Part shown: piece by piece, positions 29,175 to 44,213 of the stretch | Layout of the letters: the number at the start of each line of letters is the position of its first letter | How positions within the stretch are numbered: position 1 is the first letter of the stretch | UHGV virus genome: UHGV-0084588 | Reading direction: 5' to 3' (one strand) | From: a virus | DNA length: 64,000 bases | Notes under the pieces: generated by a model | The model's input: the letters and a program-made list of their open reading frames with translations, nothing else | The model's database searches: none | What the model was told of the DNA's origin: nothing | Made by a program: the position numbers and the translations under genes

Positions 29175-30374
29175 TTATCTCGTACCTGCTTCTGCCTGAA
29201 CGTCATCACGGGACGTCAAGTTAGCGTTAACGTGCACTGAAGCCTGAACCACACCGCCGTATTTCTTGTGCAGGTAACCTGTGTGTGGGTTATCCGCCGC
29301 AATATGGTTTTGTAGGTTCTGATTCGCCTGACTGATTGCGTTCGTGTTATTCGCAACCTGTTGTTTAAGCGCATCCAAGTTTTGTTGCAGATTATCAATT
29401 TTCTGATCGGTCTCATTACCCCGCTGTTCTAACGCAGCAATGCGCTGAATCGCTTGGTTGAGCTTGGTGTTCAGATCGTTGATATTTTTCTGTAACTGTA
29501 ACACTAACGAGTTTAGGTTCGCCAGTGCCAGTGCCATTTTCTGGTAGTTTTGTGCAACGACGTTAAGTTGGTCGTTCCACGCTTCCAGAGATTTGACAAC
29601 AGCATCAATACGTTTTCCTAACGCTTCGTCCGCTTTCTTCAATGCGTTGATTTCAGTAATCGTTGCATCAATGGCAGACTGCACGTCGCGGATAAGCGCA
29701 CGGATTTCCGTTTCCGTTAACCCGTTAACCTGATGAATATCCAGATGGTGGACATTACCAGTGGAGTTAATGTGCGCGTTCAGCGCGTCCAGGAAATCGT
29801 TTTTCAGGCTATCGAGAATCGCTTTGATGTTCTCAAGCTGTACAGCATCGCCCGCAGTTATCGCATCTTTAATACCGGCGAGCACTGTAATGATGTATTC
29901 GAAGCCGTAGATATCGCCGACGTCTTTATACGTTGGTGCCGAAGGAAACGTGTCCGGCACATTTCGCAAGTCTTTAAAGCCAACAGTTCGATTATCGAGA
30001 TTCAACTCGGCAATCGCTTGCTCAATCGCGGTCACAACTGCAGACTGTGGACCACCAACTACTTGCGCCGATACCGTGATATCGGTCGGAATCGCGGTGT
30101 TCGTTACAACAACCGCCATTACTACTTCCCGGTTCTTCGTCAATTTCTCGTAAGCCGGGTGTGCAAAAATCAGCTCATAGTCCGTTCCACGCTCATACGT
30201 CGCTCCAGGTCGATTGGCAACCCGCAAGCGGAACGTATCGGCATAAAACGGGCCATCAGGGAAAGCAAACGCACGGTTAACTTTACCTGTACCTAACGTA
30301 ATCTGACGCTCCACGGCGTTAGAGGTTAGGGTTCCCGTTAAATCTAAAGGGTATTGGTATACAATGGAGGCCAT
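29175..30374 (-). CDS. fibre-like protein with N-terminal anchor motif and coiled-coil shaft
   Basis: Start at the ATG at 30374 (AAGGAGAG RBS); N-terminal FAFPDGPFYADTFRLRV...GTDYELIF shared with the three giant tailspikes; long heptad-like region. Confidence 0.6.
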   Translation of the reverse strand: MASIVYQYPLDLTGTLTSNAVERQITLGTGKVNRAFAFPDGPFYADTFRLRVANRPGATYERGTDYELIFAHPAYEKLTKNREVVMAVVVTNTAIPTDITVSAQVVGGPQSAVVTAIEQAIAELNLDNRTVGFKDLRNVPDTFPSAPTYKDVGDIYGFEYIITVLAGIKDAITAGDAVQLENIKAILDSLKNDFLDALNAHINSTGNVHHLDIHQVNGLTETEIRALIRDVQSAIDATITEINALKKADEALGKRIDAVVKSLEAWNDQLNVVAQNYQKMALALANLNSLVLQLQKNINDLNTKLNQAIQRIAALEQRGNETDQKIDNLQQNLDALKQQVANNTNAISQANQNLQNHIAADNPHTGYLHKKYGGVVQASVHVNANLTSRDDVQAEAGTR

Positions 30375-30414
30375 GGCCACTCTCCTTAATCCGAGACGTC
30401 CTTGTCTCGTGGCG

Positions 30415-33400
30415 TTAAGATGTAAACATAAGATTGAACTGGAGCTTATCGATATCGCGAGTTTGTGCTGGGTTAACCGCATCGTACGTGGTTGCCACGT
30501 AGACCGTTAACGTGCCGTCAGAAAACGCGGTTTTCACCGGTGGTGTAGTCCCTGTCTGTCCATCAGTTACAATGACGACAGGTTGAGCCGGGAGTTGACG
30601 AAACTGACTCTTAACCGCTTTATACACCAAACCAGATTGTGCCGCTTGCTCTGTGGCGGTGTACACGATAAACGGTGTGTCGATATCTGTCTGTTTAATG
30701 ACAGTGTTCGTCTCAACGTCAATCAGCTGAACAGCACCAAATTTGGTCCGGTAACTATCGTATTCATTTTTTGGAATGACAAACGTAGCATGAAGGCGGA
30801 CTTCGGCGGCTGGCTTAAATCCCGCGTGTTCTTTTTCCAGGTAACTGTTAGCAGTTAGCGTTACTGTCTGTTCAGTCATCGTACCGCCAGACTGATTTAG
30901 CCCGTAACGAACTTGAGTTATACCTGTCGGGGCCGCAAGCCTGATTTTCAGTCGACGATTAGTAGTACCAGGATCGCCAGGTACTTTAACACGCAGACTC
31001 AATGCCAGATATGCATACTCGCCGGTAGTCGGTTTCGTATACGCACCCAACCACTTCATGTTCGCGGTTGCTGCTTGTTTGTTCTCAGAAGCAGTAGCCG
31101 CTGCAACGTTCGCAGCAACCGCTTTCTGCCAGAACTGGTCAGCGCAGTTCTCATACGCCACCCTGCTGATACTTTTATAACCTGAATAGGTTTCCTGTAC
31201 CGGCAACCTGGGCCGCGTTGCAATCCCGGACAACGTATTCCATTTCTGGCCATCGACATACCCAGCACCCTTGCTCGCAGATGCTGTAATGGCTTTAACG
31301 GGTTTATTAACCACTGTTAATAGTGGACCAGTTTTCCTGTCGAACGCCTGCGCCACATCGTGCTGATCAACAACCGAGGCATGATTTTCCAGCTCTTTTA
31401 CACGACCTAACCGTTTTACTTTATCGATACTGATATCCGTAATACGGTTCGAATCAGTGGTTACTGTCCCAACAAACAGTCTCGACGAGGTATCAGCTAA
31501 CTGCTCTAAACCGATGCGGTATTGGGCAGTAGAACCGACCACTTCAGCATAAACGTAGAATGTCTGGTTAGCGTGATTAGTCGGGAATTCATCGCTTAAA
31601 TCAACGGACCATCTTGGAACGGTATATCTTTTATTTCCAAAACTTAACTCGGTTTCCTCCGTCAGATAGAAATTCCAACCGCTCTGTGTTTGTACGCCGC
31701 CAATAATAATCTTATCGATAACAGTATATTTTTTGTTAAACAAATCAGAGATTCTATACTGTTCGCCACCGAGATACAACTCGTTTAAATCTTCCGAGTT
31801 ACAAGTCAATAGCGCGATGCCCGAGAGATCGGGTATATAGACTTCAGATGTATTATTCAGCGTATACGTATAGCCCCACGCCCGATGAATTTCGCCGGTA
31901 AACCATTCTCCTTTTTTAGTCAAGTTTATCCCAAAAGCAAAAGAAATCTCTGATCCTACAAGATTCCCGCCAACCAGGTTATGTATTGAGAATCTGAACT
32001 TTTGTCCGTCTTGCGAATAAAGGAAAACTTGACCGGAGCGTTGTTTAAGTTCACCATTAAAAGCTGTGGGTGAGAGATTAATGGCGTTACTGGCCACTTT
32101 TTCCCTGAACGTCATCATTCTCGCTTCCGAACTAACGAACCTTATGACCCCGTTGGTTATAGTCGGTTTTACCTGAAAGAAGTAAAAAGCAAACTTATTT
32201 ACCCCGTCAGTGTCTTTATAGATAAGACTCACTATCGCGATACAAAGCGGACCACCAGACATCGTTTGACCAAGCACCCAAAAGGACAAACTGTAGTTGT
32301 TCTTTTTGGTCTTAGCTACGCTAATCCGCTCATAGGCGTTGCCGTTAGAAGCCCCAGAGAACTGGCTGGACTGAACAATATTAGTCAACTTCGCCCATTC
32401 TGCCGCATCGATAGACAACCGATCACTAGCCACCGTAGTGGTACCGTAAACAACTTTACATGGTTTACTTTCAGCACCGATAAAGTAAGCCCCATCTAGT
32501 AGACCTTTCGGTATGTCTGGCGTAACAACCAGCGGTATATTTGTCAATACGCCGTATTCGTTCGCTTTTTTTTCAACACGGCGGGATGTTGGTCCAAACC
32601 CGCCGTATCCAGGATAACCATAAGTCGTATCTTTATCATATTCGGCTTCAATGAAATAAGCCGTTTTTTGATGTTTAAGCCATACTTTGTTTGTTCCTGG
32701 GAAGAACAATGGGAAGGTCATAGACGGTTTCCACACCGAACCCACCACAGGGTTTATCCGATTTTCAAACGTAGATTGCCCCTCATACCCCGCACTCAAC
32801 TTAACATAGTCCAGATAACTAACTCCTTCTGGGAGTTTCTGGTAATGGAGAGATGGTGCAAGTTGTTTTTCTGTCGAACAGCAGCAAGAATAAACCATAT
32901 CACCGACACAGATTCTATTGTCGGCCATATAGCCAGAACTTCGAGTAGCCCATTTCCATTTCAGCTCTATTTTTGTTCCGTCTTTTAAGTAGCAACCTGT
33001 AGTATCGATTTTGATTGGGAAGATGTTAGTTGTCTCTAACCCAACCTCCCCGGTTAATAGGTCGAGACGATAAGCACCATTCCATGGCCCGAATGTGGTA
33101 CCTTTCGTTGAAGAAAAACCAAGACAAACGCCAGACACGCCGACGGTTAACAAGTGACCGTCCTTAACAACGGGCGTTATCCATCTTGACACCCCTCTAG
33201 TTAATTGTAAATTCACTGTCCACAACGCTTTGCCTTCCGCAGTGAAGTAGGCAAGACGCTTCGTATTCGGATTATCTACATCGAACGCGCCAGGTTCAAC
33301 CAAATCGGCACACTTACCGATTTTTCGTGTAGAGCTTAAATCAACCTGTTCAAACCGATCGGTTTTATTAAGCCGCAATAACCCAACACGGAACATAGGT

Positions 33401-35601
33401 TGCGGAGTATCCTTAATGTAGTCCACCAGACTATTGTTTTTCAGATCGGCCATTAGCATCGTACGCAAAACATAAACGCCATTATCGGCTATGACCACAC
33501 GATCCATGAACATATTCGGCACAAATTCCCATGTTGTTTCTGAAACAAATTCTGAGAAAGTTACCAACCTGACATCGGTATGTTTGGTGTAATCCATTGA
33601 ACCGTTCAGTTTAACTAAATAATAATTATCGTCGCTGCCCTTCGCTATAAATGCTTCGGTACCAGTAACGGTAATTTCTTTTAGTTCCACCCCCGGATAA
33701 TTCGTCTCTAACCCTTTCGGCTTATAACGGAAAGTTGTTTTGTAAATTTCACCGAGACTTTTGTCGTTTTTTAACCCAGCAACAGCGTAATAAATACCCT
33801 CAGTTCCCGGAAGGGCAGATTTAGAACTAATTAAAGCATAAAGCTTACCTTGTTGTACCCCTATAACCATCTGGAGCGCATCCATGTTTTTACCATAACC
33901 TTCGTAATTACCCATCGACAAGATCGGCAATATCGAATTGTTGGTATATTTGCTCCCGGCCGTTGTCCATGCGGGCAAGAGGGTATTCAGTTTATCAGAG
34001 ACCTTCTTAATCTCTTTTGCGAACAACCACCCTTGGCGTGATGTGACGGCTTTATCATTCGTGGTATCAATCGCATCCCACAGCTGTAAGATACCGTCCA
34101 CTGTTGCGCTACCGATCGGGACATTATCCAAATCAGCGGTAGTGTGCGTGTGTACCTTCAAACTTTTATTTTTCAGCACGTTCGCTAATGCTTTTGTTAC
34201 CGGTTTAGCGATGGGTGTGGTGTTATTCATCTTATCGATACCGAAATCGGCCTTCGTTAAGGTTAACACCATGTTGTCGCCTGTCTTAACAAACCCTTTA
34301 CCGTTAACCGTGTAGTCGTCGTCAACGTACAAGTCCAACCGGTCTTTTAATTCGGTCACAGCCTTTTGGGAAATAGCAGTGCCTAGCGCTACAGAGGTTG
34401 CGATATTCGTAATCGAAAACACCCCATAAACCGACTCGGTTGCTGTGGGAATATTCGCATTCAACGTTAGTGGGTTAGACTGCTTCGCTGTACCGTACGG
34501 TTTTACGGTGTCAGACGATTTGAAATAGGCGTTCGCTTCAAGTAACGTTACAGACGTCAGGTACATGTTCACCATTTCTGGTGTAACCAAATACACAGAG
34601 TTATAGACCGGTGCTAATACATCCTGTTCTGACCCAGAATGTACCCAAAGCGTATTCAGCCCCGCACTAAACTCAACCGCCAAACCGGATTCGTTGTTGT
34701 CTTGGTCTGCTTTAATCACTAACGGTTGTGGTGAAGTAATTAACCACTTATCACCACGGATGCTGATGATGTGTCCACCCGGTGTTTTAAACGTTAGTTC
34801 ATTACCGTTCGTGGTACCCCAACGACCGTAAACGGTACCGAGGGCTTCGCCCATTAACTGTTCAACGTCTGATTGCTCAATGCCCGCCGAACCCATCAGC
34901 GTAGCCAGTTGGTCAATTGTCAACCCAAACGCTTTTGTAGCGTCAACAGCACGTCCTAAAACCGGAAGGGCCCCAACGTCATTGGTCGTATACTGGTGAG
35001 CGTTAGGATTAAGGTGGTGTTGGTATAGTTCTTCATCGAAAATCTTTTTACCGTTCTCGTAAATCAGGTTAGTGACTTCGGTGAAGGCCGCATCTAACTC
35101 TGTTGAACGCTGAATGATTTTCTTGCGGATATCGTTCAACGCTTTAACGACCTCGTCCCTCAGAATCGCTTCTTCTAAGTTAGCAGGGGGGTCGATTGGT
35201 TGAATAACCGGCGCGTACGCCATTAACTCCGACCAGTCCACGTTACGTGGGTCTTTCAGGTCAGTACGAACTAAGAACTTCCCGATTTCAGATTGCGGTA
35301 CACGGTATTGACGTGCTACCCCTAAAATCTCATATTCGATTTCTGTTGCAGTAAGCAACATAAACCCGCCATAAATCTGATCTTGTTCAGCTTCTGCGAG
35401 TTCTTTAAAGTAATAGCCTAAATAGTAGTCCAACCCCTCAATCAGAGTACGACGTCCGTTAGGCGCGGTATCGTCGGCTACTGTGAGTTTTAATCCGATA
35501 CGATAAAAAGGTCCTTCAGGCGGAATGACCACGTTAAATCGGTTAGGGTACGTCGTTGTGCTTAGCGTACCGTTAAACTGCGCCGCGTCTTCTCTCGGCA
35601 T
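30415..35601 (-). CDS. giant tailspike/tail-fibre protein (1728 aa)
   Basis: N-terminal VIPPEGPFYRIGLKLTV...LIEGLDYYL anchor motif (T7 gp17 / T4 gp10-like as recalled); a tail-fibre-type segment with KVHTHTTADL; AGGAG RBS. Confidence 0.75.
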   Translation of the reverse strand: MPREDAAQFNGTLSTTTYPNRFNVVIPPEGPFYRIGLKLTVADDTAPNGRRTLIEGLDYYLGYYFKELAEAEQDQIYGGFMLLTATEIEYEILGVARQYRVPQSEIGKFLVRTDLKDPRNVDWSELMAYAPVIQPIDPPANLEEAILRDEVVKALNDIRKKIIQRSTELDAAFTEVTNLIYENGKKIFDEELYQHHLNPNAHQYTTNDVGALPVLGRAVDATKAFGLTIDQLATLMGSAGIEQSDVEQLMGEALGTVYGRWGTTNGNELTFKTPGGHIISIRGDKWLITSPQPLVIKADQDNNESGLAVEFSAGLNTLWVHSGSEQDVLAPVYNSVYLVTPEMVNMYLTSVTLLEANAYFKSSDTVKPYGTAKQSNPLTLNANIPTATESVYGVFSITNIATSVALGTAISQKAVTELKDRLDLYVDDDYTVNGKGFVKTGDNMVLTLTKADFGIDKMNNTTPIAKPVTKALANVLKNKSLKVHTHTTADLDNVPIGSATVDGILQLWDAIDTTNDKAVTSRQGWLFAKEIKKVSDKLNTLLPAWTTAGSKYTNNSILPILSMGNYEGYGKNMDALQMVIGVQQGKLYALISSKSALPGTEGIYYAVAGLKNDKSLGEIYKTTFRYKPKGLETNYPGVELKEITVTGTEAFIAKGSDDNYYLVKLNGSMDYTKHTDVRLVTFSEFVSETTWEFVPNMFMDRVVIADNGVYVLRTMLMADLKNNSLVDYIKDTPQPMFRVGLLRLNKTDRFEQVDLSSTRKIGKCADLVEPGAFDVDNPNTKRLAYFTAEGKALWTVNLQLTRGVSRWITPVVKDGHLLTVGVSGVCLGFSSTKGTTFGPWNGAYRLDLLTGEVGLETTNIFPIKIDTTGCYLKDGTKIELKWKWATRSSGYMADNRICVGDMVYSCCCSTEKQLAPSLHYQKLPEGVSYLDYVKLSAGYEGQSTFENRINPVVGSVWKPSMTFPLFFPGTNKVWLKHQKTAYFIEAEYDKDTTYGYPGYGGFGPTSRRVEKKANEYGVLTNIPLVVTPDIPKGLLDGAYFIGAESKPCKVVYGTTTVASDRLSIDAAEWAKLTNIVQSSQFSGASNGNAYERISVAKTKKNNYSLSFWVLGQTMSGGPLCIAIVSLIYKDTDGVNKFAFYFFQVKPTITNGVIRFVSSEARMMTFREKVASNAINLSPTAFNGELKQRSGQVFLYSQDGQKFRFSIHNLVGGNLVGSEISFAFGINLTKKGEWFTGEIHRAWGYTYTLNNTSEVYIPDLSGIALLTCNSEDLNELYLGGEQYRISDLFNKKYTVIDKIIIGGVQTQSGWNFYLTEETELSFGNKRYTVPRWSVDLSDEFPTNHANQTFYVYAEVVGSTAQYRIGLEQLADTSSRLFVGTVTTDSNRITDISIDKVKRLGRVKELENHASVVDQHDVAQAFDRKTGPLLTVVNKPVKAITASASKGAGYVDGQKWNTLSGIATRPRLPVQETYSGYKSISRVAYENCADQFWQKAVAANVAAATASENKQAATANMKWLGAYTKPTTGEYAYLALSLRVKVPGDPGTTNRRLKIRLAAPTGITQVRYGLNQSGGTMTEQTVTLTANSYLEKEHAGFKPAAEVRLHATFVIPKNEYDSYRTKFGAVQLIDVETNTVIKQTDIDTPFIVYTATEQAAQSGLVYKAVKSQFRQLPAQPVVIVTDGQTGTTPPVKTAFSDGTLTVYVATTYDAVNPAQTRDIDKLQFNLMFTS

Positions 35602-35619
35602 CGTAAAGACTCCTACTTT

Positions 35620-35658
35620 TAAATAAAATGGATACCCCTCCCCATTACAGGGAGGGGT
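35620..35658 (-). terminator. hairpin between tailspike genes
   Basis: ACCCCTCC-ccattacag-GGAGGGGT, followed on the minus strand by a U-rich stretch and the RBS of the next gene. Confidence 0.5.
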
Positions 35659-35695: not shown

Positions 35696-38600
35696 CTAAG
35701 TACGATCCCCTAACTGCTTCCCGTTAAGTTCTCGTTTCAGTACAGCCAGAATCCACTTCCACGCTTTACTCGTGATGTGGTACGGGTTGCGTTTCTCCAT
35801 TAAGAACTGACTTTCGCCGCTACGGAGTTCGAAACTCTGTGCATTGAGTTGATCTTGACGGACGCTTTTCTCGTCAGTGACATCTAACGAACAAGCGAAG
35901 TTAAGTTCATAACCTTCTGGATTATTGCCGGGTGGTTCTAAGACAATATAAATGTCCTGACCTACACGTAAGTCCTTTGGCGTAAGAGTAATCGCTTTAC
36001 CTGTATCAGAGGCGGTCGAAAGCGCAAAAGATACGCTATCAATAGCCGATACATACGGGTCCTTCCCGGCATCACCGATAATCACTTTACCCGGCCAGTT
36101 AGACTTCACCGTCCCGGCCACTTTTGCAACGCGATACTGCTGTTTATCAGCACCTTGTGCAAAGCGTAAAATGAGTTTATGGCGATAACGACTCGCAGCA
36201 GCTTTAGTCGTGCTCCACTCATTATTCCAGGAAGCGTTGAGTTCACCTTTCTTGGCCATCAAGGCACCACGAGACAGCTTACGGTCAAAGAACTGCGCAG
36301 GCAACTGACCGTCATGGGAAACAGCAACACTTCCCTGTCCGGTTGGCAGCGCGATGCTTTCTGTAACGCGGTATTTTTGACTAACCTCATAAGTCGCAGG
36401 GTCAATCACAGACTGACTAAAATCAACGTCTTTGGTATCAGCCAAATACCCAACGGACGAATCCAGATACGATTCGAACAACGAACGTAAGTAATGGTAC
36501 TTATCAATGTCGACGTTACTCGTAGCCGGATCAATCAGCGCGTGACTAATCGTTACACGGCATTTCGCAGACAGTTCTTTAAACGACAATCCCACACCGT
36601 CGCCAGTGAAATAATCCACTAAATCGAACGGGAATTGAATCTCCAGCTGTCGATGTTTAACTGTTGTCGTTCCGAACTGTGAGAACGTCAGTGCTAAACG
36701 TAATACCCGACTGTTTACGTTGTAACGATAGCGAATCATGCCACGAGGTGCATGGTTTGCAGAAATTTTATCTCGACCGGCACCCCAACCTATCAAGTCG
36801 AGCGTCGCCGCGTTGGTTTCCTCACCGTTGAACAACACATCCTTAAACGTTGCGGCCACTGCCGTTTCCCCAGACTCCTCCATCACTAACGGAATATCCG
36901 TAACAGCAGAATCTGAACGGGAACCAATCCCCAACTTACAGGTTTTGGTAGTTAGGTCAATGCGCAGATAGCGACGTTTAACGCTGCTACCTTGCGTTGA
37001 CGTGCATAGAACCAAATCCGGCGCAGCAGCAAGGGCTTGCGTTCCACCAACATCGTCAACATCGAACGCAAACGAGCCTTCGAATGTCGGTGCGTTGTTT
37101 TCTTTCGGGTTAAATGGTGTAAACCAACAATACGGCGTAGCACCTTCAGGTATCACAACGTATTGAAGACTCGACTTCACGTTTTGGTTGTGTGCGTAGG
37201 TATAAAGGCCGCGACTGACAAGATGGAAAACATCCCCTGTAGCGGTTGCTAACGGTTTCCTAAAGATACACGCTCTTGGTTCAGCAATAGCACGGTTTAA
37301 TAACGGCAGCCGTGGGTTATCCGTTAACGCCCAGTCAACAGCGCTGAGTCCGTGTGCCTTACGAGTGCTGATGTGCTCGCTAACTTCCGCACTTTTCCCG
37401 AAATCAAACGTGGTTTCAAACCCCACAGTTTTATTCGCGTAAGACTGACCAGGAACGATATCAACATATCCGATATAACCGCGCTCTGGGTCAACGGCAA
37501 TACTCTGAATCGGTTCAGCACGCGAATACAGAGAGCCTGTGAGCATGTTAACGTATAAATAGTGACGAACCCCTACGTGCGTTGTAACAAACTCCTGGAG
37601 AAGCTCTACGCGCGTTTCAGGACCACTGAAATAAACGGGGTAATCACCATCGTAAACTTCGAACTGTACCGCTGCGGATTTAGTCGTGTCGCTACACTCG
37701 GCTTTAACCGCCACTGTGTAATTTTCAACGTCTGCTGACGTTTCATACACCGCGACGAGTGGAGACTCGCCTGAAGCGGCCTGGATACCGTTAATGTAAA
37801 CCGTAACCTGACCACCCCCAGCAGCATAAACCCAGAGCTTCGGTTGGTATGCTTTTACACGCGTTTTTGCCAATACAGTAATAACTGACTGGTCACCCAT
37901 CTGTGTAGCAGTCTTACCTACCGGGACAGACTGGAACCCCATCAATGGCGGTTCTTCAATACCCGTCCAGTTGATCCCCGTACCGTTACTCACCTTACCC
38001 GTAGCCCAAGTCAGCTCAAGTTGGTTATTCGGTGAGAACCAGTTAAACATCGGGGTGGTTTGCAGGTCAATCGCACCGGTAACGGTACTGTCACCTTTCG
38101 TGCCGTCCAGCAAATAGAAATATTTCAAATCCTGAACGGAGATTGCCGTACCCTGGCTATTAAATCGCCAGTCTGCGCCTTTTACAGCAGCGAAATCCGT
38201 GACTGTTCCTTCTTTCGCATTTGCAATTGCCGCAGCGACCACACTTAAACGTGCCGAAAGCTCTTTTAAGATGTTCGGTACCACTGCACGGTTTTCAACC
38301 AAACCGTTCTGGTTAGTTGCATAACGACCAATACCGTAAACAGATTGAGAAGCTTTATAAATGCCTAACTCCGACCAATCGTGATGATGGCCTACATCTG
38401 CTAGACCGCTAACCGCCTTAGTTAACTCGGTTGACAACGGTTTGTCAAGGTCTGCGGTGTTATCCGCTTGCCCTAACCCCAGGTCAGCTTTCGTGATTGT
38501 CCTGGAGCCGTCATTCATTGGCTTACCGTTAATCATGGTCGTTTTAGCCACATACCCTGATAGGTCGGTCGAATAAGGTGTTAATGACGCTGGCGTTGCT

Positions 38601-39880
38601 GCAACCCCAACCGTTTCTGTACCTTTACCAGTTTTAAGCTTAACAACACCTTTTTCAGCGGTTGTCGCTTTCGTCGGGTCGATAGTACCCACGATAGGAT
38701 CGGTCCGAGAGCCTTTACCGGTGAAGCTAATCCCATTACGGCCTTCGATGTACACCTTCGAGTCATCAGGGTCACCGCCGCCGCTCCCGCCAGCATCAGG
38801 ATCTTGTTGGTATTCCATCAACGCCGTGGTAGTCAGTAACGGGTTACCATTCAGGGTGAGTTTGTTCATCCCTAAAGCATCGCCGGTTGACTCGATACGT
38901 AAGGTGTTTTTACCAGCACGCCAGTTAATGTAACGTCCTGCACCCGTTCCCTCCAGATGCCCTACCGCCAACACCACAGAACCGTTGGATTTTAACGTAA
39001 AGCCATCATTCGCAAAAATGATTTCTGACTCACCGTTTTTTGAGCGGAATTGTGCACGGTTTCCTGACACCGTACAGTTAAACACACCCCGTACTTCTGA
39101 AGAAATCCAGTGGGAGATATACGTGTCAATAACTGACTGTGGTAAACGAAACGCTTTCAGTTCATCCGTCAGTGCTTTCAACTTTAACCCGTACGCCATA
39201 AAGGTGTCGGGTGTTTTCAAGTTAACAGGATGTGCGCTAATCTGTGCAGAAGTAGTTTGGTGCGGGTTGGTTTCCGCGATGTGTGCCGGGTAGTTAAATG
39301 CTTCGATTTCTTTACCCAGAGCGGTGACTAACGCTTTAACTTCGGCTAATTTATCTTTAATTAGTTGGTTAGCGTCGTCGGTTTTCAATTCAACATCGTG
39401 GACCGCTGACGCTAAATATTTTTTGTTCAGCAAATCCGCCCAGGACGTTGCCGCAGGCGTAGCCGGGTATAACGACGGTCTGCCTTCTAATAACAGCCAA
39501 TCAGCGCTGACTGGGTTATTCAAATATTTCACCAGCTCATCGAGAATGTCAACAAACGGGTCGTAGAACGTACCACCGAGCATTTGTCCTTCAAAGGTTA
39601 CGATGCCCTTGATGGATGGGTTGATAAGGTGTACCCCACAATACACGTTGGCTGCTACCGAGTCATCCAGTTCTGTCAGTTGGTATTGCAGTTCGTAGTC
39701 CACCCCACGACTCAGTGGGGTGGTTGAACCTGGTTGTCTGACGACTAAATCTTCAAAGAACGGGCGATGGTCTAAAATCACCACCCGATCGTTGTTGTTT
39801 TCTGACCCGATGATACGCTCCTCTAAGAAGTGATTCTCGGTTTTCGTCCCCCGAGGATCGTAAGGATACGCTTTCATCAA
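35696..39880 (-). CDS. giant tailspike/tail-fibre protein (1394 aa)
   Basis: N-terminal RVVILDHRPFFEDLVVRQPG...GVDYELQY anchor motif; internal tail-fibre-repeat-like segment (ATTAEKGVVKLKT...TKADLGLGQADNTADLDKPLS) with VGHHHDW. Confidence 0.75.
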   Translation of the reverse strand: MMKAYPYDPRGTKTENHFLEERIIGSENNNDRVVILDHRPFFEDLVVRQPGSTTPLSRGVDYELQYQLTELDDSVAANVYCGVHLINPSIKGIVTFEGQMLGGTFYDPFVDILDELVKYLNNPVSADWLLLEGRPSLYPATPAATSWADLLNKKYLASAVHDVELKTDDANQLIKDKLAEVKALVTALGKEIEAFNYPAHIAETNPHQTTSAQISAHPVNLKTPDTFMAYGLKLKALTDELKAFRLPQSVIDTYISHWISSEVRGVFNCTVSGNRAQFRSKNGESEIIFANDGFTLKSNGSVVLAVGHLEGTGAGRYINWRAGKNTLRIESTGDALGMNKLTLNGNPLLTTTALMEYQQDPDAGGSGGGDPDDSKVYIEGRNGISFTGKGSRTDPIVGTIDPTKATTAEKGVVKLKTGKGTETVGVAATPASLTPYSTDLSGYVAKTTMINGKPMNDGSRTITKADLGLGQADNTADLDKPLSTELTKAVSGLADVGHHHDWSELGIYKASQSVYGIGRYATNQNGLVENRAVVPNILKELSARLSVVAAAIANAKEGTVTDFAAVKGADWRFNSQGTAISVQDLKYFYLLDGTKGDSTVTGAIDLQTTPMFNWFSPNNQLELTWATGKVSNGTGINWTGIEEPPLMGFQSVPVGKTATQMGDQSVITVLAKTRVKAYQPKLWVYAAGGGQVTVYINGIQAASGESPLVAVYETSADVENYTVAVKAECSDTTKSAAVQFEVYDGDYPVYFSGPETRVELLQEFVTTHVGVRHYLYVNMLTGSLYSRAEPIQSIAVDPERGYIGYVDIVPGQSYANKTVGFETTFDFGKSAEVSEHISTRKAHGLSAVDWALTDNPRLPLLNRAIAEPRACIFRKPLATATGDVFHLVSRGLYTYAHNQNVKSSLQYVVIPEGATPYCWFTPFNPKENNAPTFEGSFAFDVDDVGGTQALAAAPDLVLCTSTQGSSVKRRYLRIDLTTKTCKLGIGSRSDSAVTDIPLVMEESGETAVAATFKDVLFNGEETNAATLDLIGWGAGRDKISANHAPRGMIRYRYNVNSRVLRLALTFSQFGTTTVKHRQLEIQFPFDLVDYFTGDGVGLSFKELSAKCRVTISHALIDPATSNVDIDKYHYLRSLFESYLDSSVGYLADTKDVDFSQSVIDPATYEVSQKYRVTESIALPTGQGSVAVSHDGQLPAQFFDRKLSRGALMAKKGELNASWNNEWSTTKAAASRYRHKLILRFAQGADKQQYRVAKVAGTVKSNWPGKVIIGDAGKDPYVSAIDSVSFALSTASDTGKAITLTPKDLRVGQDIYIVLEPPGNNPEGYELNFACSLDVTDEKSVRQDQLNAQSFELRSGESQFLMEKRNPYHITSKAWKWILAVLKRELNGKQLGDRT

Positions 39881-39890
39881 AAAATTCTCC

Positions 39891-42800
39891 TTAATCGCGA
39901 ATGATTACCGCCTGCACTTTATTGTTGGTGTCGATAAACGACATTACGCGCTCCTTGTTAAGATAAGGAGGTATCGGTAACGCAGCGTAATCCGCCAGGC
40001 TGTTATTAAATTCAGTTGCCACTAACGCATTAAGCGTTTCGGGGTCTGAGCTGACACCGGCCAATTCCATGACGCGTACTCGATTTAATGAGGAATAGTT
40101 GCTAATATAGTCCAACAACGTACCGTAGACTTTATTCGCAGTTGCGCTGTCTGCTGTAGAGCGGATGTTGGCACGAACCTCATCCTCATAAAGTCCCCCT
40201 AAACCGTAGTAAATAGGGGTATACGGATCATTAACAATAGGTTCGATATTGAACCCGGTTAAACGGTCGACTAATGGGATTTTCTGCGTAGTTCCCCCTG
40301 CTGCCGTACAGCTTACGTATTTATCTGTCGTGGATAAAAACACCACGATAGTATACACAGTGCCAGCTAAAGTCAGCGATGCATTAAACGTTATTGCGTT
40401 GTTTGCACCACGGGTGTGGGTAAACGTTACGTCAGGTTGTAATGAACTCCACGGTGCAGCTGTAACACGCTTCGTTGGTGTGAAACCTACCACTACCGAT
40501 TTCCCGCTACCGAAGTTCAAACCGAACCCTGCGTAACAATATTCACCGTTACTGTCAGTTAAACGATAACCGCGAGTGATGAGTAATGACAACCGCATAA
40601 ACTCGCCGTCGGTGTTCTTCCAACAACCTAAAACAGTTTCTAACACTGTTCCGGTTTTTGCGTTGCTTTCTGTTTCCCAACTTACCCGCATTCCTGCGTT
40701 TTTGAAAGTCGGGAATAAGTTGTGAATAAAACCATGAAGGTTATCACTTACCCCTTTCGCATCGAAAACCCACTTTGATGCGAGCTGGTCGTATTTCACC
40801 CCGTCTAAGGCTCTATACTGTCCACCGACGACATAACGCCAATCTGCTTCACCACGTACTACTGCCTGGAGTCCCGAAGCCCAGCAGGGCGCACCTACCG
40901 TTAAGTTAGCTAACCCAAGCACTGCACGTGTCGTGGAGCGGTGAATATGCGCGTTATCGTCAGCAGCGTGATCTTTCAGTTCACGGAAATCGTCCAGCCG
41001 TGTGACGTTACGCATCTCTGTAACGAACACTTCAGAAAGGTCATTGACGCCGATTAATCCCACACGCGTCATGGTATCCGTTTCAGCCTGACTGTAGCTG
41101 TCGTGAATAATGTACTTCGCTTTGTTGTCAACAATATCAACAAAAATCCCCGCGTAGATTTCTGTATTCAACTTCGGAAAACGTTCACTGACGTTAATCG
41201 TCGTCAACGGCACGGTGTATGTTTCGCCACCGATAAAATACGTTGATGCTGGAAGTGTAACCAGTATTTTGTCTTTGACCGTAACATCAATTAAGTCGTT
41301 ACCAGACTTACCAAAACGTATAATGTCGAGACGTGCCTCCGAGTCAACACCCCCGACAGCACTTTCCAATTTTTCAATCTGGGTAGTCTGCGCCATTACC
41401 ACACTGCCATCGAGTGCTAAAGTCGCGTCGTCCACATCCAGACCAAATTTAATCAAGCCACGTTTCGCGGTGGTTGCGTTCCCGGTACCAAATGCGGTAA
41501 ATGGGTGGTGGTGTACTTTAGGCGAATATTTATCTAACTCCGCCTGCTGTGCTGTGGAGATCGGCAAATCGACATCGGGTGTATTCGCAACGTTACCCAA
41601 ACCAAAGGTAATTTTGTCGATAGTAACTGAGCTGGTAAGTTGCATGTCGTTAATGTACGATTTAGCTGCAACTAGTTTACCGGTAAACTCAGCGTCCAGT
41701 TTTTCAATCAATGCGGGGGTTGCTGCGAGATTTTCAGCCGTACCGAATTCGTCCGTTAACTGCCAACACGCTAACGTAGTAACGTCTTCGGCAACCGGAA
41801 GAATAAACGTTGCTACGAATGGCGATGCTTTAATCCCACTACCGGTAAGTTCCACCGTAGCTGTAGATGCACCGTAGAATAATCCCGTACCACCTGCAGT
41901 ATTGCCCGGCAAATACGGCGCTACCGTGGTGGGGTCTAAGAGCTTCTTACCACGCCACAGTAATCCTCGGTCATCGGGATATAGCACAAGCTGGTTGTCG
42001 CCCGCTTGCAACGTTACCGGGTTGTTACCCACGTTAACATCAGTAGAACCTTGGCCGATGAACTTAATGGATTTCGGGTCAACGACAAACTGGGCACCTA
42101 AACGGGTCCCGTCAACGACATCGGGCGCTTTCTTAATGGTAACCGTGTTACCTTTATTCCCCGAGCTAATAGTGACGTTGTCAGCAACATTACCGATCAA
42201 TGATTTAAAGTGGTGGCTATTCTCCAATGCTTCTAGTGCAGCGTCCATGTTAGTGAAGTTAACACGTGCACTATATGTCTTGCCGTTTATGGTAATAACG
42301 ACATCAAACACGTTCCCTGTGCGTTTCAGTTGAAAACGCAGCGTAAAATCCCCATCCGGTATTGCTGGATTAGGAGCTTGGGAAAGATACTGAACTTCCG
42401 GTGTGGGATTCGAAAAACCGTTCAGTTCCAACTTAACGCCGACTTTACCCGCAGAAATTTCACCTGTAAGCTGGATAAATTTTCCAGAGTTAGTACCAGG
42501 TTTCTGATAGAAACGTAGGCTAACCGTACCGACGGCTTCATTACCAGACGCTGTTTTACGTCCGGTAACAATAAAGTCAATATCTTGCAGGTTAGCAGGT
42601 ACCGCATTAAAAGAAGTGGTGAATCCACTCTTCGTTCCTGTGTAACGAAGCGCACCGTGATACCTGTGACCATTACTAACGTAGCTTTCGCTAAAACGAG
42701 GACTCACGTATTTCGACATTGACACCGGGTCAACTTCCGTCGTGAACGAAGTAAAACCGGGCAGCGTTCCAATAGTTCCGTTAGCCGTTTTCGTAGCTGA

Positions 42801-44213
42801 CGTGCGTAATAGTTTCTTTTGTGCTGTCAACGTCGCTTGTGTTGGATACTTAGCATTAACATAGTCCGTTAACTGCGGCTTCGTTTTTCCGTAAGCTAAT
42901 GCTGCATCCGACGCAATGCCGTTCAACTCTAACGCACGGATCGGACCCCACGTATCTGTGTGTGGGTTGTCCTTACGTGTAACGTGTTCGTGCGCAGGCG
43001 CATTACGATACAGCTGCTCAACTAACTGATGATACTTAACTATTAACTGGTAAACATCGTTATCGACGTCGGGCTCCGGCGCACCGGGTAAAGAACGAAT
43101 TTGAACATAATCGTTTTCAGCCGCATACCAGTTCAGGTTAATGTTCGTTTTAGACTTCAACCATTTGGCTACATTCGTTTTCGAATACCCTGCCGAGAAC
43201 TCATCAGGCGGCGTATCGACGTTGAATGTATAATCCATGGTCTGTTTATTTGTTTTTACTACGATTACGTAAACGCCGTTTCCGGGCTGACGGGTTACAC
43301 TAAAATCGATATCGTTTTTTAACTCATCGTCAGTTAAACCGTTGATTAAAGTATAATCGTAGTTTGTTGAACCACTGCCAATAGCGACAGTTAAGACCAG
43401 TGAGATTTTGCGCTGTTTTAGCTGTAACCGTAGAATGCTTGCACCGCCGTTGGCATAACAGAGCATCCAATCGATCTGCTCGTTCGGATTCAACTTTGTC
43501 ATGTCTGGCAGAATAGCAGGAATTCTGTGTTTCACCGACAGGGAATAGTCGTTAAAGGTTGTCGCGTTATAACTCAGGCTATAACGGTGGCGAGCTGTGT
43601 TGTAGGTGAAACCGCCTTTATTATCGTACGCGGCATACTGCTCGGAAGTGATAACCTTGCTATTAGCACGATATTCCAAATCCAGTGTGTTGCGTGCGAT
43701 TGGGTTAAGCCGACTCACGACTTCCCCTAACGAATCGCCTACCCCAGCAATGGCCTGCATTAGCTCCAGTTCACCTTTCCAATTCTCCCAATCGAACTGG
43801 ATATCGACCGGTGGAAAGTAAACGTCTCCGATAACGGTGTCCCACTGACACGCGGAAGGGTATTTACCTTTATTAAGCTCGCGCTCTGCGGTAATCTGCT
43901 CTTGGGTTGCTTCACCGCAACCAACGGCATGGTAATCTACAGTAAAGTTCGATTTGTATTTGTCATTAACAATCCAAATCATCCCGTGAATGAGATAGGC
44001 TGTGCGCAACATACCAGTCTCGTACGGGTGTGTAATAACGTAATCGTCGCCTAAGGTCAGTATTTTGCCGCCGCTCTTGACCACCAGGGATGTGGTGAAA
44101 AAAGGGGCGTGGGCAGGTACCAACATTCGGTATTTCGTACCAATGACGGCGACCGCTTCACCGGTTATTTTATTCCCCGGTTTTTTGAAGTGTGGGTCTA
44201 AGACGACAGCCAT
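39891..44213 (-). CDS. giant tailspike/tail-fibre protein (1440 aa)
   Basis: N-terminal YRMLVPAHAPFFTTSLVVKSGGKILTLGDDYVITHPY anchor motif; FGLGNVANTPDVDLPIS and KVHHHPF segments. Confidence 0.75.
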   Translation of the reverse strand: MAVVLDPHFKKPGNKITGEAVAVIGTKYRMLVPAHAPFFTTSLVVKSGGKILTLGDDYVITHPYETGMLRTAYLIHGMIWIVNDKYKSNFTVDYHAVGCGEATQEQITAERELNKGKYPSACQWDTVIGDVYFPPVDIQFDWENWKGELELMQAIAGVGDSLGEVVSRLNPIARNTLDLEYRANSKVITSEQYAAYDNKGGFTYNTARHRYSLSYNATTFNDYSLSVKHRIPAILPDMTKLNPNEQIDWMLCYANGGASILRLQLKQRKISLVLTVAIGSGSTNYDYTLINGLTDDELKNDIDFSVTRQPGNGVYVIVVKTNKQTMDYTFNVDTPPDEFSAGYSKTNVAKWLKSKTNINLNWYAAENDYVQIRSLPGAPEPDVDNDVYQLIVKYHQLVEQLYRNAPAHEHVTRKDNPHTDTWGPIRALELNGIASDAALAYGKTKPQLTDYVNAKYPTQATLTAQKKLLRTSATKTANGTIGTLPGFTSFTTEVDPVSMSKYVSPRFSESYVSNGHRYHGALRYTGTKSGFTTSFNAVPANLQDIDFIVTGRKTASGNEAVGTVSLRFYQKPGTNSGKFIQLTGEISAGKVGVKLELNGFSNPTPEVQYLSQAPNPAIPDGDFTLRFQLKRTGNVFDVVITINGKTYSARVNFTNMDAALEALENSHHFKSLIGNVADNVTISSGNKGNTVTIKKAPDVVDGTRLGAQFVVDPKSIKFIGQGSTDVNVGNNPVTLQAGDNQLVLYPDDRGLLWRGKKLLDPTTVAPYLPGNTAGGTGLFYGASTATVELTGSGIKASPFVATFILPVAEDVTTLACWQLTDEFGTAENLAATPALIEKLDAEFTGKLVAAKSYINDMQLTSSVTIDKITFGLGNVANTPDVDLPISTAQQAELDKYSPKVHHHPFTAFGTGNATTAKRGLIKFGLDVDDATLALDGSVVMAQTTQIEKLESAVGGVDSEARLDIIRFGKSGNDLIDVTVKDKILVTLPASTYFIGGETYTVPLTTINVSERFPKLNTEIYAGIFVDIVDNKAKYIIHDSYSQAETDTMTRVGLIGVNDLSEVFVTEMRNVTRLDDFRELKDHAADDNAHIHRSTTRAVLGLANLTVGAPCWASGLQAVVRGEADWRYVVGGQYRALDGVKYDQLASKWVFDAKGVSDNLHGFIHNLFPTFKNAGMRVSWETESNAKTGTVLETVLGCWKNTDGEFMRLSLLITRGYRLTDSNGEYCYAGFGLNFGSGKSVVVGFTPTKRVTAAPWSSLQPDVTFTHTRGANNAITFNASLTLAGTVYTIVVFLSTTDKYVSCTAAGGTTQKIPLVDRLTGFNIEPIVNDPYTPIYYGLGGLYEDEVRANIRSTADSATANKVYGTLLDYISNYSSLNRVRVMELAGVSSDPETLNALVATEFNNSLADYAALPIPPYLNKERVMSFIDTNNKVQAVIIRD

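What the first reader, a model, noticed from the sequence alone, without database searches (positions are those of the whole stretch)
29175..44213. Four consecutive fibre/tailspike genes, three of 1394-1728 aa, sharing an N-terminal anchor motif and His-triad segments
All four minus-strand genes begin with a related ~40-aa segment (P-[FY]-[FY]...hydrophobic...G-x-DY-x-[LIFY]) reminiscent of the T7 gp17 / T4 gp10-type attachment domain. Their large C-terminal parts are unrelated to each other, suggesting several distinct receptor-binding or depolymerase specificities on one particle. Conserved V-H-x-H segments next to tail-fibre-repeat-like motifs suggest metal-binding sites.
Basis: partly seen in the sequence, partly recalled or inferred. 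Interest (0 to 1): 0.6.

Follow-up and report, generated by a model that had tools for sequence, protein, structure and literature searches.

The report
Jumbo-phage baseplate fibre gene set
These four genes encode the baseplate fibre proteins of an SPN3US/phiKZ-type jumbo phage, a protein family already known from proteomics and cryo-EM, so the finding is real but is a new member of a known kind.

Summary
The four minus-strand genes are real. Corrected coordinates are g1 29175-30374, g2 30415-35601, g3 35696-39877 and g4 39891-44213. They are orthologs of Salmonella phage SPN3US gp167-gp170 and distant homologs of phiKZ gp131/133/134/135. In g2, g3 and g4 the similarity runs on for ~500 aa, through a tail-fibre-repeat segment that ends in a conserved H-x-H, and includes a second ~100-aa shared module. 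Only the distal parts are unrelated. SPN3US orthologs are tail-associated virion proteins. In phiKZ, cryo-EM places six such N-domains plus a six-helix bundle beneath gp130, and the gp130 homolog lies next door (44283-45545, +). The T7 gp17/T4 gp10 analogy gets no support from Pfam or fold search. The beta-helix depolymerase idea is not supported for g2, whose modelled body falls in the beta-propeller class with lectin-like beta-sandwiches. Distal modules show recombinational exchange between close relatives, as expected for receptor-binding parts. New here: g1 belongs to the family, His pairs sit at three levels, and g4 has a lineage-specific 200-aa insertion. Verdict: new member of a known kind, modest interest.

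The parts
29175..30374 (-). g1: small paralog (399 aa), ortholog of SPN3US gp167. Layout: N-domain, helix, His pair (H201/H209), ~140-aa coiled coil, second His pair (H357/H364). No distal globular domain.
   Evidence: phrog_2163 E 5e-104 and coiled-coil Pfam hits; 67-82% identity to Asesino/SPN3US/EaH2 orthologs; SD and start; conserved His
29880..30374 (-). g1 gp131-like N-terminal domain (res 1-165)
   Evidence: best phiKZ-type match is the gp135 equivalent, E 1.4e-17
30415..35601 (-). g2: 1728-aa fibre protein, ortholog of SPN3US gp168
   Evidence: phrog_7449 E 0 over the full length; synteny
35092..35601 (-). g2 N-terminal domain (res 1-170)
34144..34152 (-). g2 H-x-H (H484, H486), at the end of a 'NT..KP.T..AL..K' tail-fibre repeat unit
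   Evidence: the repeat family is shown
31732..33921 (-). g2 large all-beta body (res 561-1290): beta-propeller class plus beta-sandwich domains. Only 15-25% identical to known orthologs over res ~700-1300.
31348..31731 (-). g2 second shared module (res 1291-1418), ending in the His pair H1407/H1414
   Evidence: hhalign against g4 P 1.4e-14; His conserved in all 7 orthologs
30418..31347 (-). g2 distal domain (res 1419-1728); exchanged by recombination between near relatives
   Evidence: For res 1401-1728 identity is 74-86% and dS is 1.21, against 0.21 for the rest of g2
35634..35658 (-). 11-bp GC-rich hairpin followed by a T-rich run in the g3-g2 gap (terminator-like)
35696..39877 (-). g3: 1393-aa fibre protein, ortholog of SPN3US gp169
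   Evidence: phrog_8078 E 0; tblastn 69-74% identity in the first 220 aa to phiEaH2/Asesino/SPN3US
39428..39877 (-). g3 N-terminal domain (res 1-150), confidently modelled beta-rich fold
   Evidence: AF2 pLDDT >90 for res 1-100; BFVD hits only to jumbo-phage virion proteins
39248..39427 (-). g3 long alpha-helix (res 152-194) and invariant His pair H199/H206 (AHIAETNPH)
   Evidence: invariant in 67 sequences; same element in the phiKZ-type paralogs
38381..38389 (-). g3 H-x-H (H497, H499)
37613..38050 (-). g3 candidate lectin-like beta-sandwich (res ~610-755)
   Evidence: Family profile against the PDB: lectins 6t0q/6kbj E 8e-5, but per-domain i-E 0.0076, so weak
36278..37477 (-). g3 hypervariable distal segment (res 801-1200)
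   Evidence: 66-74% identity to the near relative against 92-99% elsewhere; pS 0.76, saturated
39891..44213 (-). g4: 1440-aa fibre protein, ortholog of SPN3US gp170 (1237 aa)
   Evidence: phrog_7557 E 0
43734..44213 (-). g4 N-terminal domain (res 1-160)
43074..43661 (-). g4 mosaic domain inserted between the N-domain and the helix/His element (res ~185-380). About 70% identical to SPN3US but only 14-29% to the Erwinia-phage orthologs.
42954..43073 (-). g4 helix and His cluster H408/H410/H418 (APAHEHVTRKDNPH)
42054..42743 (-). g4 lineage-specific insertion (res 491-720), absent from all five annotated orthologs
   Evidence: gap in all orthologs; no tblastn match in 50,697 phage records; present in the Logan contig L007; one partial Proteus mirabilis protein, 69% identity; no internal duplication
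41505..41513 (-). g4 H-x-H (H901, H903)
40935..41318 (-). g4 second shared module (res 966-1093), ending in H1082/H1089
44283..45545 (+). Divergently transcribed homolog of phiKZ gp130 / SPN3US gp171, the baseplate protein beneath which the fibres dock in phiKZ.
   Evidence: blastp against the SL2 gp130 equivalent E 2e-12 over 410 aa; phrog_3337; conserved synteny in 6 phages and in phiKZ-like SL2; PMC5105663 Table 4; PMC13250141

Best explanation
The four genes encode the peripheral baseplate fibre set of an SPN3US-like nucleus-forming jumbo phage (Chimalliviridae).

Common layout. All four proteins start with a gp131-like N-terminal domain (~150 aa). It is followed by a long alpha-helix that ends in a conserved H-x6-(NP)H pair.

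Attachment (inferred by homology with phiKZ). Six such N-domains and their six helices pack together as the base of a fibre. This base docks beneath the gp130 homolog, which is encoded next door on the opposite strand.

The three giant members (g2, g3, g4). They continue through a common ~300-aa shaft that contains a widespread tail-fibre repeat ending in H-x-H. After a variable body comes a second shared module with another His pair. They end in mutually unrelated distal domains: a beta-propeller with lectin-like sandwiches in g2, a possible lectin-like sandwich in g3, and a lineage-specific insertion in g4. These distal parts contact the host surface and are exchanged by recombination between related phages.

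The small member (g1). It has only a coiled coil after the anchor, so it most likely acts as a structural partner, not as a receptor binder.

Shown versus inferred. Shown: homology, domain layout, conservation, synteny and the recombination pattern. Inferred: the docking geometry, the oligomeric state, metal binding by the His pairs, and receptor binding.
For: Orthology and synteny with SPN3US gp167-171, Asesino gp187-191, phiEaH2, Kwan and Phobos.

SPN3US proteomics. gp167-170 are detected in virions (PMC5694885 supplement). The paper reports gp168-170 absent from a tailless mutant and similar to phiKZ gp131. gp171 is the phiKZ gp130 homolog, is essential and is tail-associated (PMC5105663).

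N-domain. An HMM built without any phiKZ sequence hits the phiKZ-type gp131/133/134/135 equivalents at E 1e-17 to 1e-30. All of these carry the helix plus H..NPH element.

phiKZ cryo-EM atlas (PMC13250141). Six gp131-like N-domains plus a six-helix bundle sit beneath gp130, with 12 fibres per baseplate.

Structure. AF2 model of g3 1-560: confident N-domain, a 43-residue helix, then extended modules. BFVD structural neighbours are exclusively jumbo-phage virion or fibre proteins.

Family-wide conservation. The 550-aa N-module is joined to variable C-termini in proteins of 780-2500 aa. P39, H199 and H206 are invariant; H497 and H499 are >=90% conserved.

Variation. Identity to orthologs falls from 60-85% at the N-terminus to 15-40% at the C-terminus. 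Distal patches have saturated or strongly elevated dS between near relatives.

g2 distal fold. Beta-propeller and lectin-like.

Non-redundancy. phiKZ TnSeq recovered no insertions in gp131-135, so each appears essential (PMC12676376).
Against: - No direct data exist for this phage; every virion or location statement is transferred from SPN3US and phiKZ.
- The phiKZ fibre base was built by docking AF3 models into 4.5-A density, and its authors call the hetero-hexamer a candidate.
- The phiKZ paralogs are far smaller (about 460-771 aa) than g2-g4, so the geometry may differ.
- Spacing between the second and third His levels differs greatly (g2 ~920 aa, g3 ~340 aa, g4 ~180 aa). This fits separate homotrimers better than one in-register heteromer distal to the shaft.
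- SPN3US spectral counts (gp167 about 1.4-2.5 times gp168-170 per kDa) do not discriminate between 1:1:1:1 and 3:1:1:1.
- The lectin match for g3 is weak.
- The window also encodes an unrelated classical P1/P2-type fibre. That fibre could be the primary receptor binder.
Confidence: 0.78

Rival explanations
1. One reading: four independent homotrimeric fibres or tailspikes. Each is anchored separately by its own N-domain and each is a separate receptor-binding or depolymerase specificity, so one particle carries up to four host-range determinants.
For: - The distal parts are mutually unrelated apart from one ~100-aa module.
- Each large protein has its own recombination hot-spot.
- Unequal spacing between the conserved His levels favours homotrimeric distal parts.
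- SPN3US gp168-170 are roughly equimolar.
- With two trimers per docking site, 12 sites would hold 24 trimers, that is six of each paralog. This arithmetic is my own inference.
Against: - phiKZ density shows six N-domains per attachment site and only two kinds of site (PMC13250141), so attachment is not one protein per site.
- All paralogs are retained in fixed order in every genus examined.
- In phiKZ each paralog is essential, which is unexpected for interchangeable host-range modules.
- g1 has no distal binding domain.
- No beta-helix depolymerase signature was found.
Confidence: 0.35
2. Strict phiKZ-type hetero-hexamer. One paralog contributes three chains and the other three contribute one chain each to a single fibre base. 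Every fibre would then be a branched, multi-headed object carrying three different giant arms. Most likely composition: g1 x3 with g2 + g3 + g4 as a heterotrimer through the shared shaft, each giving its H-x-H to a common axial site.
For: - The phiKZ model is gp131x3 + gp133 + gp134 + gp135.
- Both phage groups have four N-domain paralogs.
- The spacing from the first His pair to the H-x-H is nearly equal: 282 aa in g2 and 291 aa in g3. For g4 orthologs that lack the insertion I estimate about 285 aa.
- In SPN3US, gp167 is more abundant per kDa than gp168-170, which are close to equimolar.
- All phiKZ paralogs are essential.
Against: - The phiKZ assignment rests on docking at 4.5 A and is described as a candidate.
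- The gp167 excess is about 1.4-2.5-fold, not 3-fold, and spectral counts are crude.
- The 200-aa insertion in this lineage's g4 lies inside the putative common shaft.
- g2-g4 all resemble gp131 most closely and not gp133-135, so there is no one-to-one orthology with the phiKZ subunits.
- No multimer prediction could be run here.
Confidence: 0.3
3. The proteins are enzymatic tailspikes (capsule or O-antigen depolymerases, or sialidase/glycosidase-type enzymes) that degrade a surface polysaccharide.
For: - The phiKZ atlas notes that the gp131 propeller fold is often associated with enzymatic activity.
- Erwinia and Klebsiella relatives infect capsulated hosts. This is background knowledge.
Against: - The four proteins and 40 relatives give no Pfam glycosidase or lyase domain; the only trace is one sub-threshold CE2_N hit.
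- Identity to the propeller enzymes is 5-12%, and equally good matches are non-catalytic lectins and Kelch domains.
- The reported receptor of SPN3US is the flagellum (PMC11428620).
Confidence: 0.15

Closest known systems
SPN3US virion 'Paralog family C' (gp168, gp169, gp170) plus gp167 and gp171 (Thomas et al. 2016, PMC5105663; Ali et al. 2017, PMC5694885)
   Same: Same gene order, strand arrangement and sizes: 399/1728/1393 aa here against 400/1727/1376 aa in SPN3US, and the same 420-aa divergent neighbour. Identity is 70-82% in the N-terminal modules. The family was already described as baseplate/tail-fibre candidates related to phiKZ gp131 and was shown to be in the virion.
   Different: - The C-terminal regions are only 13-45% identical.
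- g2 residues ~700-1300 are essentially replaced (15-27%).
- g4 is 200 aa longer because of a lineage-specific insertion.
- The 2017 paper listed three members; here the gp167 ortholog (g1) is shown to carry the same N-domain (g1-g3 P 3.5e-12).
phiKZ gp131 and its paralogs gp133/134/135: crystal structure of the gp131 C-terminal domain (PDB 4GBF, Sycheva et al. 2012) and the 2026 cryo-EM atlas (PMC13250141)
   Same: - Homologous N-terminal domain (HMM E 1e-17 to 1e-30).
- The same helix plus H-x6-7-NPH element.
- Four N-domain paralogs in a row.
- A gp130 homolog adjacent on the opposite strand.
- g2 carries a beta-propeller-class domain, the fold class of the gp131 C-terminus.
   Different: - Sequence identity is only ~25%, and no similarity beyond the N-domain was detected between the window proteins and the phiKZ-type paralogs (no PDB hit to 4GBF).
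- Three members here are 1400-1700 aa, against 457-771 aa in phiKZ.
- There is an extra ~300-aa shaft with a PF03406-like repeat and a conserved H-x-H in the same place in g2, g3 and g4, and a second shared module. In the phiKZ-type paralogs scanned, H-x-H occurs only at other, non-equivalent positions.
- There is no one-to-one orthology: g2-g4 all resemble gp131 most closely, and g1 resembles gp135.
T4 gp37/gp12, R-type pyocin and P2-type fibres with H-x-H metal sites; Pfam PF03406 'Phage tail fibre repeat'
   Same: - An 'A-T-x-x-x-x-G...A-A-T-P' motif and a 'N-T-x-D-x-x-K-P-x-S...A-L...H-x-H' unit lie within an extended fibre shaft.
- Some relatives pass the PF03406 threshold.
- The histidines are highly conserved, as expected for axial metal ligands.
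   Different: - The window proteins themselves do not reach the PF03406 threshold.
- There is a single H-x-H per chain, not a stack of them.
- The commoner variant of the repeat in other giant proteins uses H-x6-7-NPH or NPxFTG and has no H-x-H.
- No solved structure contains this repeat, so metal binding is unproven.
T7 gp17 N-terminal adaptor domain / T4 gp10
   Same: Functional analogy only: an N-terminal part that fixes a fibre to the tail or baseplate.
   Different: No sequence-family hit. No structural match: the best PDB Foldseek hit has E 0.2 and is to an unrelated T5-like neck protein.

Membership tests
gp131-like baseplate fibre proteins of chimalliviruses (SPN3US paralog family C) | N-terminal gp131-like domain (~150 aa) | tested here: met
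   All four proteins: phrog_2163; hhalign P 1e-2 to 3.5e-12; the domain HMM hits the phiKZ-type gp131/133/134/135 equivalents at E 1e-17 to 1e-30
gp131-like baseplate fibre proteins of chimalliviruses (SPN3US paralog family C) | Alpha-helix after the N-domain (contributes to the six-helix bundle in phiKZ) | tested here: met
   g3 model has a helix at 152-194. The aligned helix-plus-H..NPH segments are present in g1, g2 and g4 and in the phiKZ-type paralogs. Only g3 was modelled.
gp131-like baseplate fibre proteins of chimalliviruses (SPN3US paralog family C) | Clustered paralogs next to the gp130/gp171 docking-protein gene | tested here: met
   window 44283-45545(+) against the phiKZ-type gp130 equivalent, E 2e-12; synteny
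gp131-like baseplate fibre proteins of chimalliviruses (SPN3US paralog family C) | Located at the baseplate periphery of the virion | not testable with these tools
   Known only for orthologs and homologs: SPN3US mass spectrometry and tailless mutant; phiKZ immuno-gold labelling and cryo-EM
gp131-like baseplate fibre proteins of chimalliviruses (SPN3US paralog family C) | Hetero-hexameric fibre base (six N-domains per site) | not testable with these tools
   No multimer prediction is available; the SPN3US spectral-count ratios are inconclusive
phiKZ gp131 C-terminal seven-bladed beta-propeller (PDB 4GBF) | Sequence or fold homology of the C-terminal domain to 4GBF | tested here: inconclusive
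Tailspike depolymerases (right-handed parallel beta-helix, pectate-lyase-like) | Parallel beta-helix catalytic domain | tested here: not met
T7 gp17 N-terminal / T4 gp10 attachment domains | Sequence-family or fold similarity of the N-terminal domain | tested here: not met
   No Pfam hit at E<=0.1; Foldseek against the PDB gives no hit below E 0.2, and neither protein is among the top 50
Pfam PF03406 Phage tail fibre repeat (T4 gp34/gp37, lambda Stf type) | Score above the gathering threshold | tested here: not met
   The window proteins give no hit. Five relatives do pass (P0028 at 29.6 bits against a cut-off of 22; 4 of 23 in the g2 family, best E 4e-9), in the segment equivalent to g3 ~404-440. 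This makes it a divergent relative of the repeat.
H-x-H axial metal sites of trimeric fibres (T4 gp37/gp12, R-pyocin fibre) | Conserved H-x-H in an extended trimeric shaft | tested here: met
   H-x-H is conserved in 7/7 orthologs of g2, g3 and g4 and in >=90% of 67 relatives. The trimeric state itself was not tested.
H-x-H axial metal sites of trimeric fibres (T4 gp37/gp12, R-pyocin fibre) | Bound Fe/Zn ion coordinated by six His from three chains | not testable with these tools
   Requires a structure or metal analysis; no solved structure contains this repeat

The most novel reading that the evidence does not exclude
Each baseplate fibre of this phage group is a single branched hetero-oligomer. 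The shared N-domains and helices of g1-g4 form one six-chain base. The common shaft of g2, g3 and g4 is a heterotrimer clasped by axial metal ions, which are bound by the invariant His pairs at up to three levels. Beyond the shaft the three giant chains splay into three different receptor-binding heads: a beta-propeller, a lectin-like head, and a lineage-specific insert. One fibre would then read three ligands at once, and the heads would be swapped independently by recombination.
Probability: 0.25. Interest if true: 0.55.

Novelty: new member of a known kind. Interest (0 to 1): 0.3.

Why it matters
Chimalliviruses (phiKZ, SPN3US and the Erwinia jumbo phages) are being developed for therapy and biocontrol, yet their host-recognition apparatus is poorly defined.

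This window adds a divergent example of the conserved four-paralog fibre cassette. It gives a domain map showing which parts are fixed: the N-domain, the helix, the His pairs, the shaft and the second shared module. It also shows which parts are exchangeable: g2 residues ~700-1300 and 1400-1728, g3 801-1200, and the g4 insertion. That map tells where host-range engineering could be done without breaking assembly.

The analysis also highlights a widespread but structurally uncharacterised ~48-aa fibre repeat with invariant histidines.

It does not reveal a new kind of system.

Tried and rejected
- Word-indexed homolog searches gave few useful relatives for the N-module (8 hits, swamped by repeat proteins) and for g2 (6 hits). 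The exhaustive HMMER search was needed.
- Single-sequence PDB searches for g2 and g3 found nothing meaningful. The profile search for g4 also found nothing.
- Foldseek of the N-module against the PDB gave no significant match, so the T7 gp17/T4 gp10 idea was dropped.
- I looked for a solved structure of the 48-aa repeat to learn what the histidines do. There is none.
- I tested whether the g4 insertion is an internal duplication or is borrowed from g1-g3. No similarity was found. It has no match in 50,697 phage records, and only a partial Proteus mirabilis fragment turned up elsewhere.
- I looked for further N-domain copies in the window. There are none beyond the four.
- I looked for one-to-one orthology between g1-g4 and phiKZ gp131/133/134/135. 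Only g1~gp135 is suggestive.
- The sigma-70 promoter scan gave fewer matches than the shuffled control (14 against 25). It is uninformative for a phage that uses its own RNA polymerases.
- I considered using SPN3US spectral counts to settle the stoichiometry. The ratios (1.4-2.5 to 1) fall between the competing models.

Full report
WHAT IS THERE.
The window comes from a jumbo phage related to Salmonella phage SPN3US and to Erwinia phages phiEaH2 and Asesino. Megablast of the 15-kb region finds only those genomes, at 71-78% identity over short stretches. The four minus-strand ORFs exist. Two starts need correcting.
- g1 begins at ATG 30374. An AAGGAG lies 7 nt upstream, orthologs are 399-400 aa, and the 30482 ATG lies inside g2.
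- g3 begins at ATG 39877.
The genes are therefore g1 29175-30374 (399 aa), g2 30415-35601 (1728 aa), g3 35696-39877 (1393 aa) and g4 39891-44213 (1440 aa). They are collinear with SPN3US gp167-170, Asesino gp187-190 and the equivalents in phiEaH2, Kwan and Phobos. In every case a 415-420-aa gene is transcribed divergently next to the cassette. An independent metagenomic contig (Logan SRR22359498, L007) carries the same cassette with protein sizes 1440/1401/1728/399 aa. Per-100-aa identity to the window is mostly 92-100% and falls to 66-86% in the divergent patches.

IS THE SHARED N-TERMINAL MOTIF REAL?
- PHROG family phrog_2163 matches the N-terminus of all four proteins.
- Profile-profile comparison of the first 165 residues, using six-phage ortholog alignments, gives P from 3.5e-12 (g1-g3) to 1e-2 (g1-g2). 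Every protein is linked to at least two others at P <= 5e-4.
P39 is invariant, and F40, G58 and D60 are >=90% conserved in 67 family representatives.
- An HMM of the domain finds exactly four copies in the window.
- AlphaFold2 on a 67-sequence alignment models residues 1-100 of g3 at pLDDT >90 as a beta-rich domain. A 43-residue helix (152-194) follows.

WHAT ELSE IS SHARED?
- g2 and g3 align over ~480 residues (E 1.6e-19). g4 carries the same shaft displaced by about 400 residues (g3 340-519 vs g4 751-923, E 2e-10).
- After the helix, all four proteins have a His pair of the form H-x6-(N-P/A)-H. In g3 these are H199 and H206, invariant in 67 sequences.
- The shaft of g2, g3 and g4 contains an 'A-T-x-x-x-x-G...A-A-T-P' motif. 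Relatives score above threshold for Pfam PF03406 at that position.
- The shaft also contains a 'N-T-x-D-x-x-K-P-x-S...A-L' unit that ends in H-x-H (g2 484/486, g3 497/499, g4 901/903).
- The exhaustive HMMER search shows this ~48-aa unit is a widespread fibre repeat, present in 5-21 tandem copies in other giant proteins. There it usually ends in H-x6-7-NPH or NPxFTG and not in H-x-H. The two kinds of His segment in the window proteins are therefore variants of one repeat.
- A second shared module of ~90-125 aa, ending in another H-x6-H pair, occurs at g2 1291-1418, g3 755-846 and g4 966-1093 (P 1.4e-14 and 1.2e-4).
- Everything else in the C-terminal parts is mutually unrelated.

WHAT IS IT?
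The family is already described.
- Thomas et al. 2016 and Ali et al. 2017 defined SPN3US 'Paralog family C' (gp168, gp169, gp170; 188, 149 and 135 kDa). These are low-abundance virion proteins, absent from a tailless mutant and similar to phiKZ gp131, and were called baseplate/tail-fibre candidates.
- Their supplementary table also lists gp167 (44.8 kDa) as a virion protein without assigning it to the family. My comparisons place its ortholog g1 in the family.
- The g3 N-domain finds 188 phage records by tblastn, spanning chimalliviruses: phiKZ-likes, 201phi2-1, Goslar, RSL2, Ea35-70 and Serratia 2050HW.
- In phiKZ-like SL2 the hit is the 771-aa gp131 equivalent, whose C-terminal half is PDB 4GBF.
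- An N-domain HMM built without any phiKZ sequence detects the gp131, gp133, gp134 and gp135 equivalents at E 1e-17 to 1e-30. It does not detect gp132. All of these, including the N-domain-less gp132, carry the helix plus H..NPH element.
- The 2026 cryo-EM atlas of phiKZ (PMC13250141) reports that each fibre-attachment site lies beneath gp130. [quoted passage not shown]
- The window ORF 44283-45545(+) is the gp130 homolog (E 2e-12 over 410 aa). Its SPN3US counterpart gp171 is essential and tail-associated.
- BFVD structural neighbours of the modelled N-module are exclusively jumbo-phage virion proteins (56 hits at E<1e-3).
- The PDB holds no significant match (best E 0.2). Together with the absence of Pfam hits, this removes support for the T7 gp17/T4 gp10 analogy.

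DISTAL PARTS.
- Identity to orthologs falls from 60-85% in the first ~500-600 residues to 15-40% beyond. g2 residues ~700-1300 are essentially replaced (15-27%).
- No right-handed beta-helix is among the top 60. The depolymerase-beta-helix proposal is therefore not met for g2, but a propeller glycosidase cannot be excluded.
- The g3 family profile weakly matches fungal lectins at residues ~610-755 (E 8e-5; per-domain 0.0076).
- g4 has a mosaic domain (res ~185-380; ~70% identical to SPN3US but 14-29% to Erwinia phages).
- g4 also has a 200-aa insertion (res ~491-720) absent from all five annotated orthologs. It has no match in 50,697 phage records and is present in the Logan relative. Its only other match is a partial protein from a Proteus mirabilis assembly. 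It is not an internal duplication.
- Between the window and its near relative the background is dS 0.2-0.5 with dN/dS 0.04-0.09. Three patches stand out: g3 801-1200 has saturated synonymous sites (pS 0.76); g2 1401-1728 has dS 1.21 against 0.21 for the rest of the gene; g4 501-700 has dS 0.68 and dN/dS 0.22. The distal modules are thus exchanged by recombination, as is typical of receptor-binding domains.
- SPN3US is reported to use flagella as its receptor (PMC11428620).

HOW IT MOST LIKELY WORKS.
Shown: homology, layout, conservation, synteny and the recombination pattern.
Inferred: the four N-domains and helices form the fibre base that docks beneath the gp130 homolog at the baseplate periphery. 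The conserved His pairs at the ends of helical or repeat segments act as axial clasps, probably metal-binding by analogy with T4 gp37/gp12 and R-pyocin fibres. g2-g4 project different binding heads. g1, which has only a coiled coil, is a structural partner.

The oligomeric state is open.
- For a phiKZ-like heteromer: four paralogs in both phage groups; all phiKZ paralogs essential in TnSeq; strict retention of all four genes across genera; near-equal spacing between the first His pair and the H-x-H in g2 and g3.
- For homotrimers, possibly two per site: very different spacing between the second and third His levels (about 920, 340 and 180 aa), and the insertion inside the g4 shaft.
- SPN3US spectral counts (gp167 about 1.4-2.5 times the others per kDa) do not decide between them.

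VERDICT.

Modest new points:
- g1 (the gp167 ortholog) belongs to the family.
- Conserved His pairs sit at three levels.
- g2, g3 and g4 share a second module.
- g2 has a propeller-class body.
- The g4 insertion is specific to this lineage.

Noticed in passing
window 4153-8655 (+) and 8655-9437 (+): A 1500-aa classical tail-fibre protein (phrog_6722, E 1e-286). It is mosaic, with 48-73% identity in segments to P1 gpS, P2 gpH, SSU5 and Goslar fibres. A 260-aa 'tail fiber protein; host specificity / adhesin' gene (phrog_2056, phrog_1121) follows it. GC there is 0.47-0.50 against 0.40-0.44 in the flanks. No SPN3US-group phage is among the best hits, so this looks like a horizontally acquired second receptor-binding locus of enterobacterial type.
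   Followed up: partly
window 28312-28707 (-) and 28717-29109 (-): Two tandem paralogs of 131 and 130 aa (both phrog_6085, unknown function) lie immediately downstream of g1 on the same strand. They may be fibre assembly factors. Relatives have different small genes at this position.
   Followed up: no
window 35634-35658 (-); also 45552-45576 (-): Strong 11-bp GC-rich hairpins with T-rich tails. One is in the 94-nt gap between g3 and g2, preceded by a second small hairpin (CTGCC-TGCG-GGCAG). The other lies just past the end of the gp130-homolog gene. They suggest the fibre cassette is transcribed as two units (g4-g3 and g2-g1) or is attenuated.
   Followed up: no
window 24877-26211 (-) and 26201-27118 (-): Two adjacent radical-SAM domain genes (phrog_1802, E 4e-114 and 3e-62), conserved in Asesino (gp180/181) and in the Logan relative. 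They lie a few genes downstream of the fibre cassette. Their function is unknown.
   Followed up: no
proteins P0031, P0042, P0053, P0101: A ~48-aa tandem repeat, 'GLGNVDNT-D--KP-S-A-Q-ALD...H......NPH-VTKAQ', or a variant ending in NP-FTG. It occurs in 5-21 copies in many 1000-2700-aa proteins from public data. It has no Pfam model and no solved structure. The single units in g2-g4 are diverged copies.
   Followed up: partly
P0164 (Proteus mirabilis assembly, 523-bp contig); P0001 (ENA contig); L007 (Logan SRR22359498): Close relatives of this phage appear in public assemblies. One is a 36-kb Logan contig whose cassette proteins are mostly 92-100% identical per 100-aa bin (66-86% in the divergent patches). 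Another is a fragment in a Proteus mirabilis isolate assembly that matches the g4 insertion at 69%. This hints that phages with this g4 insertion may infect Proteus or related Enterobacterales.
   Followed up: partly
L003 8305-8637 (phiKZ-like SL2 gp212, the gp132 equivalent): This 110-aa 'tail protein' has no N-domain but carries the helix plus H-x6-NPH plus GLGNV element. It could supply a helix or cap to the fibre bundle. No equivalent small gene was seen inside the window cassette.
   Followed up: no
window 54910-57426 (+): An 838-aa SbcC-like nuclease subunit (phrog_77, E 2e-90). It is consistent with the SPN3US-like genome context (gp186 in SPN3US).
   Followed up: no
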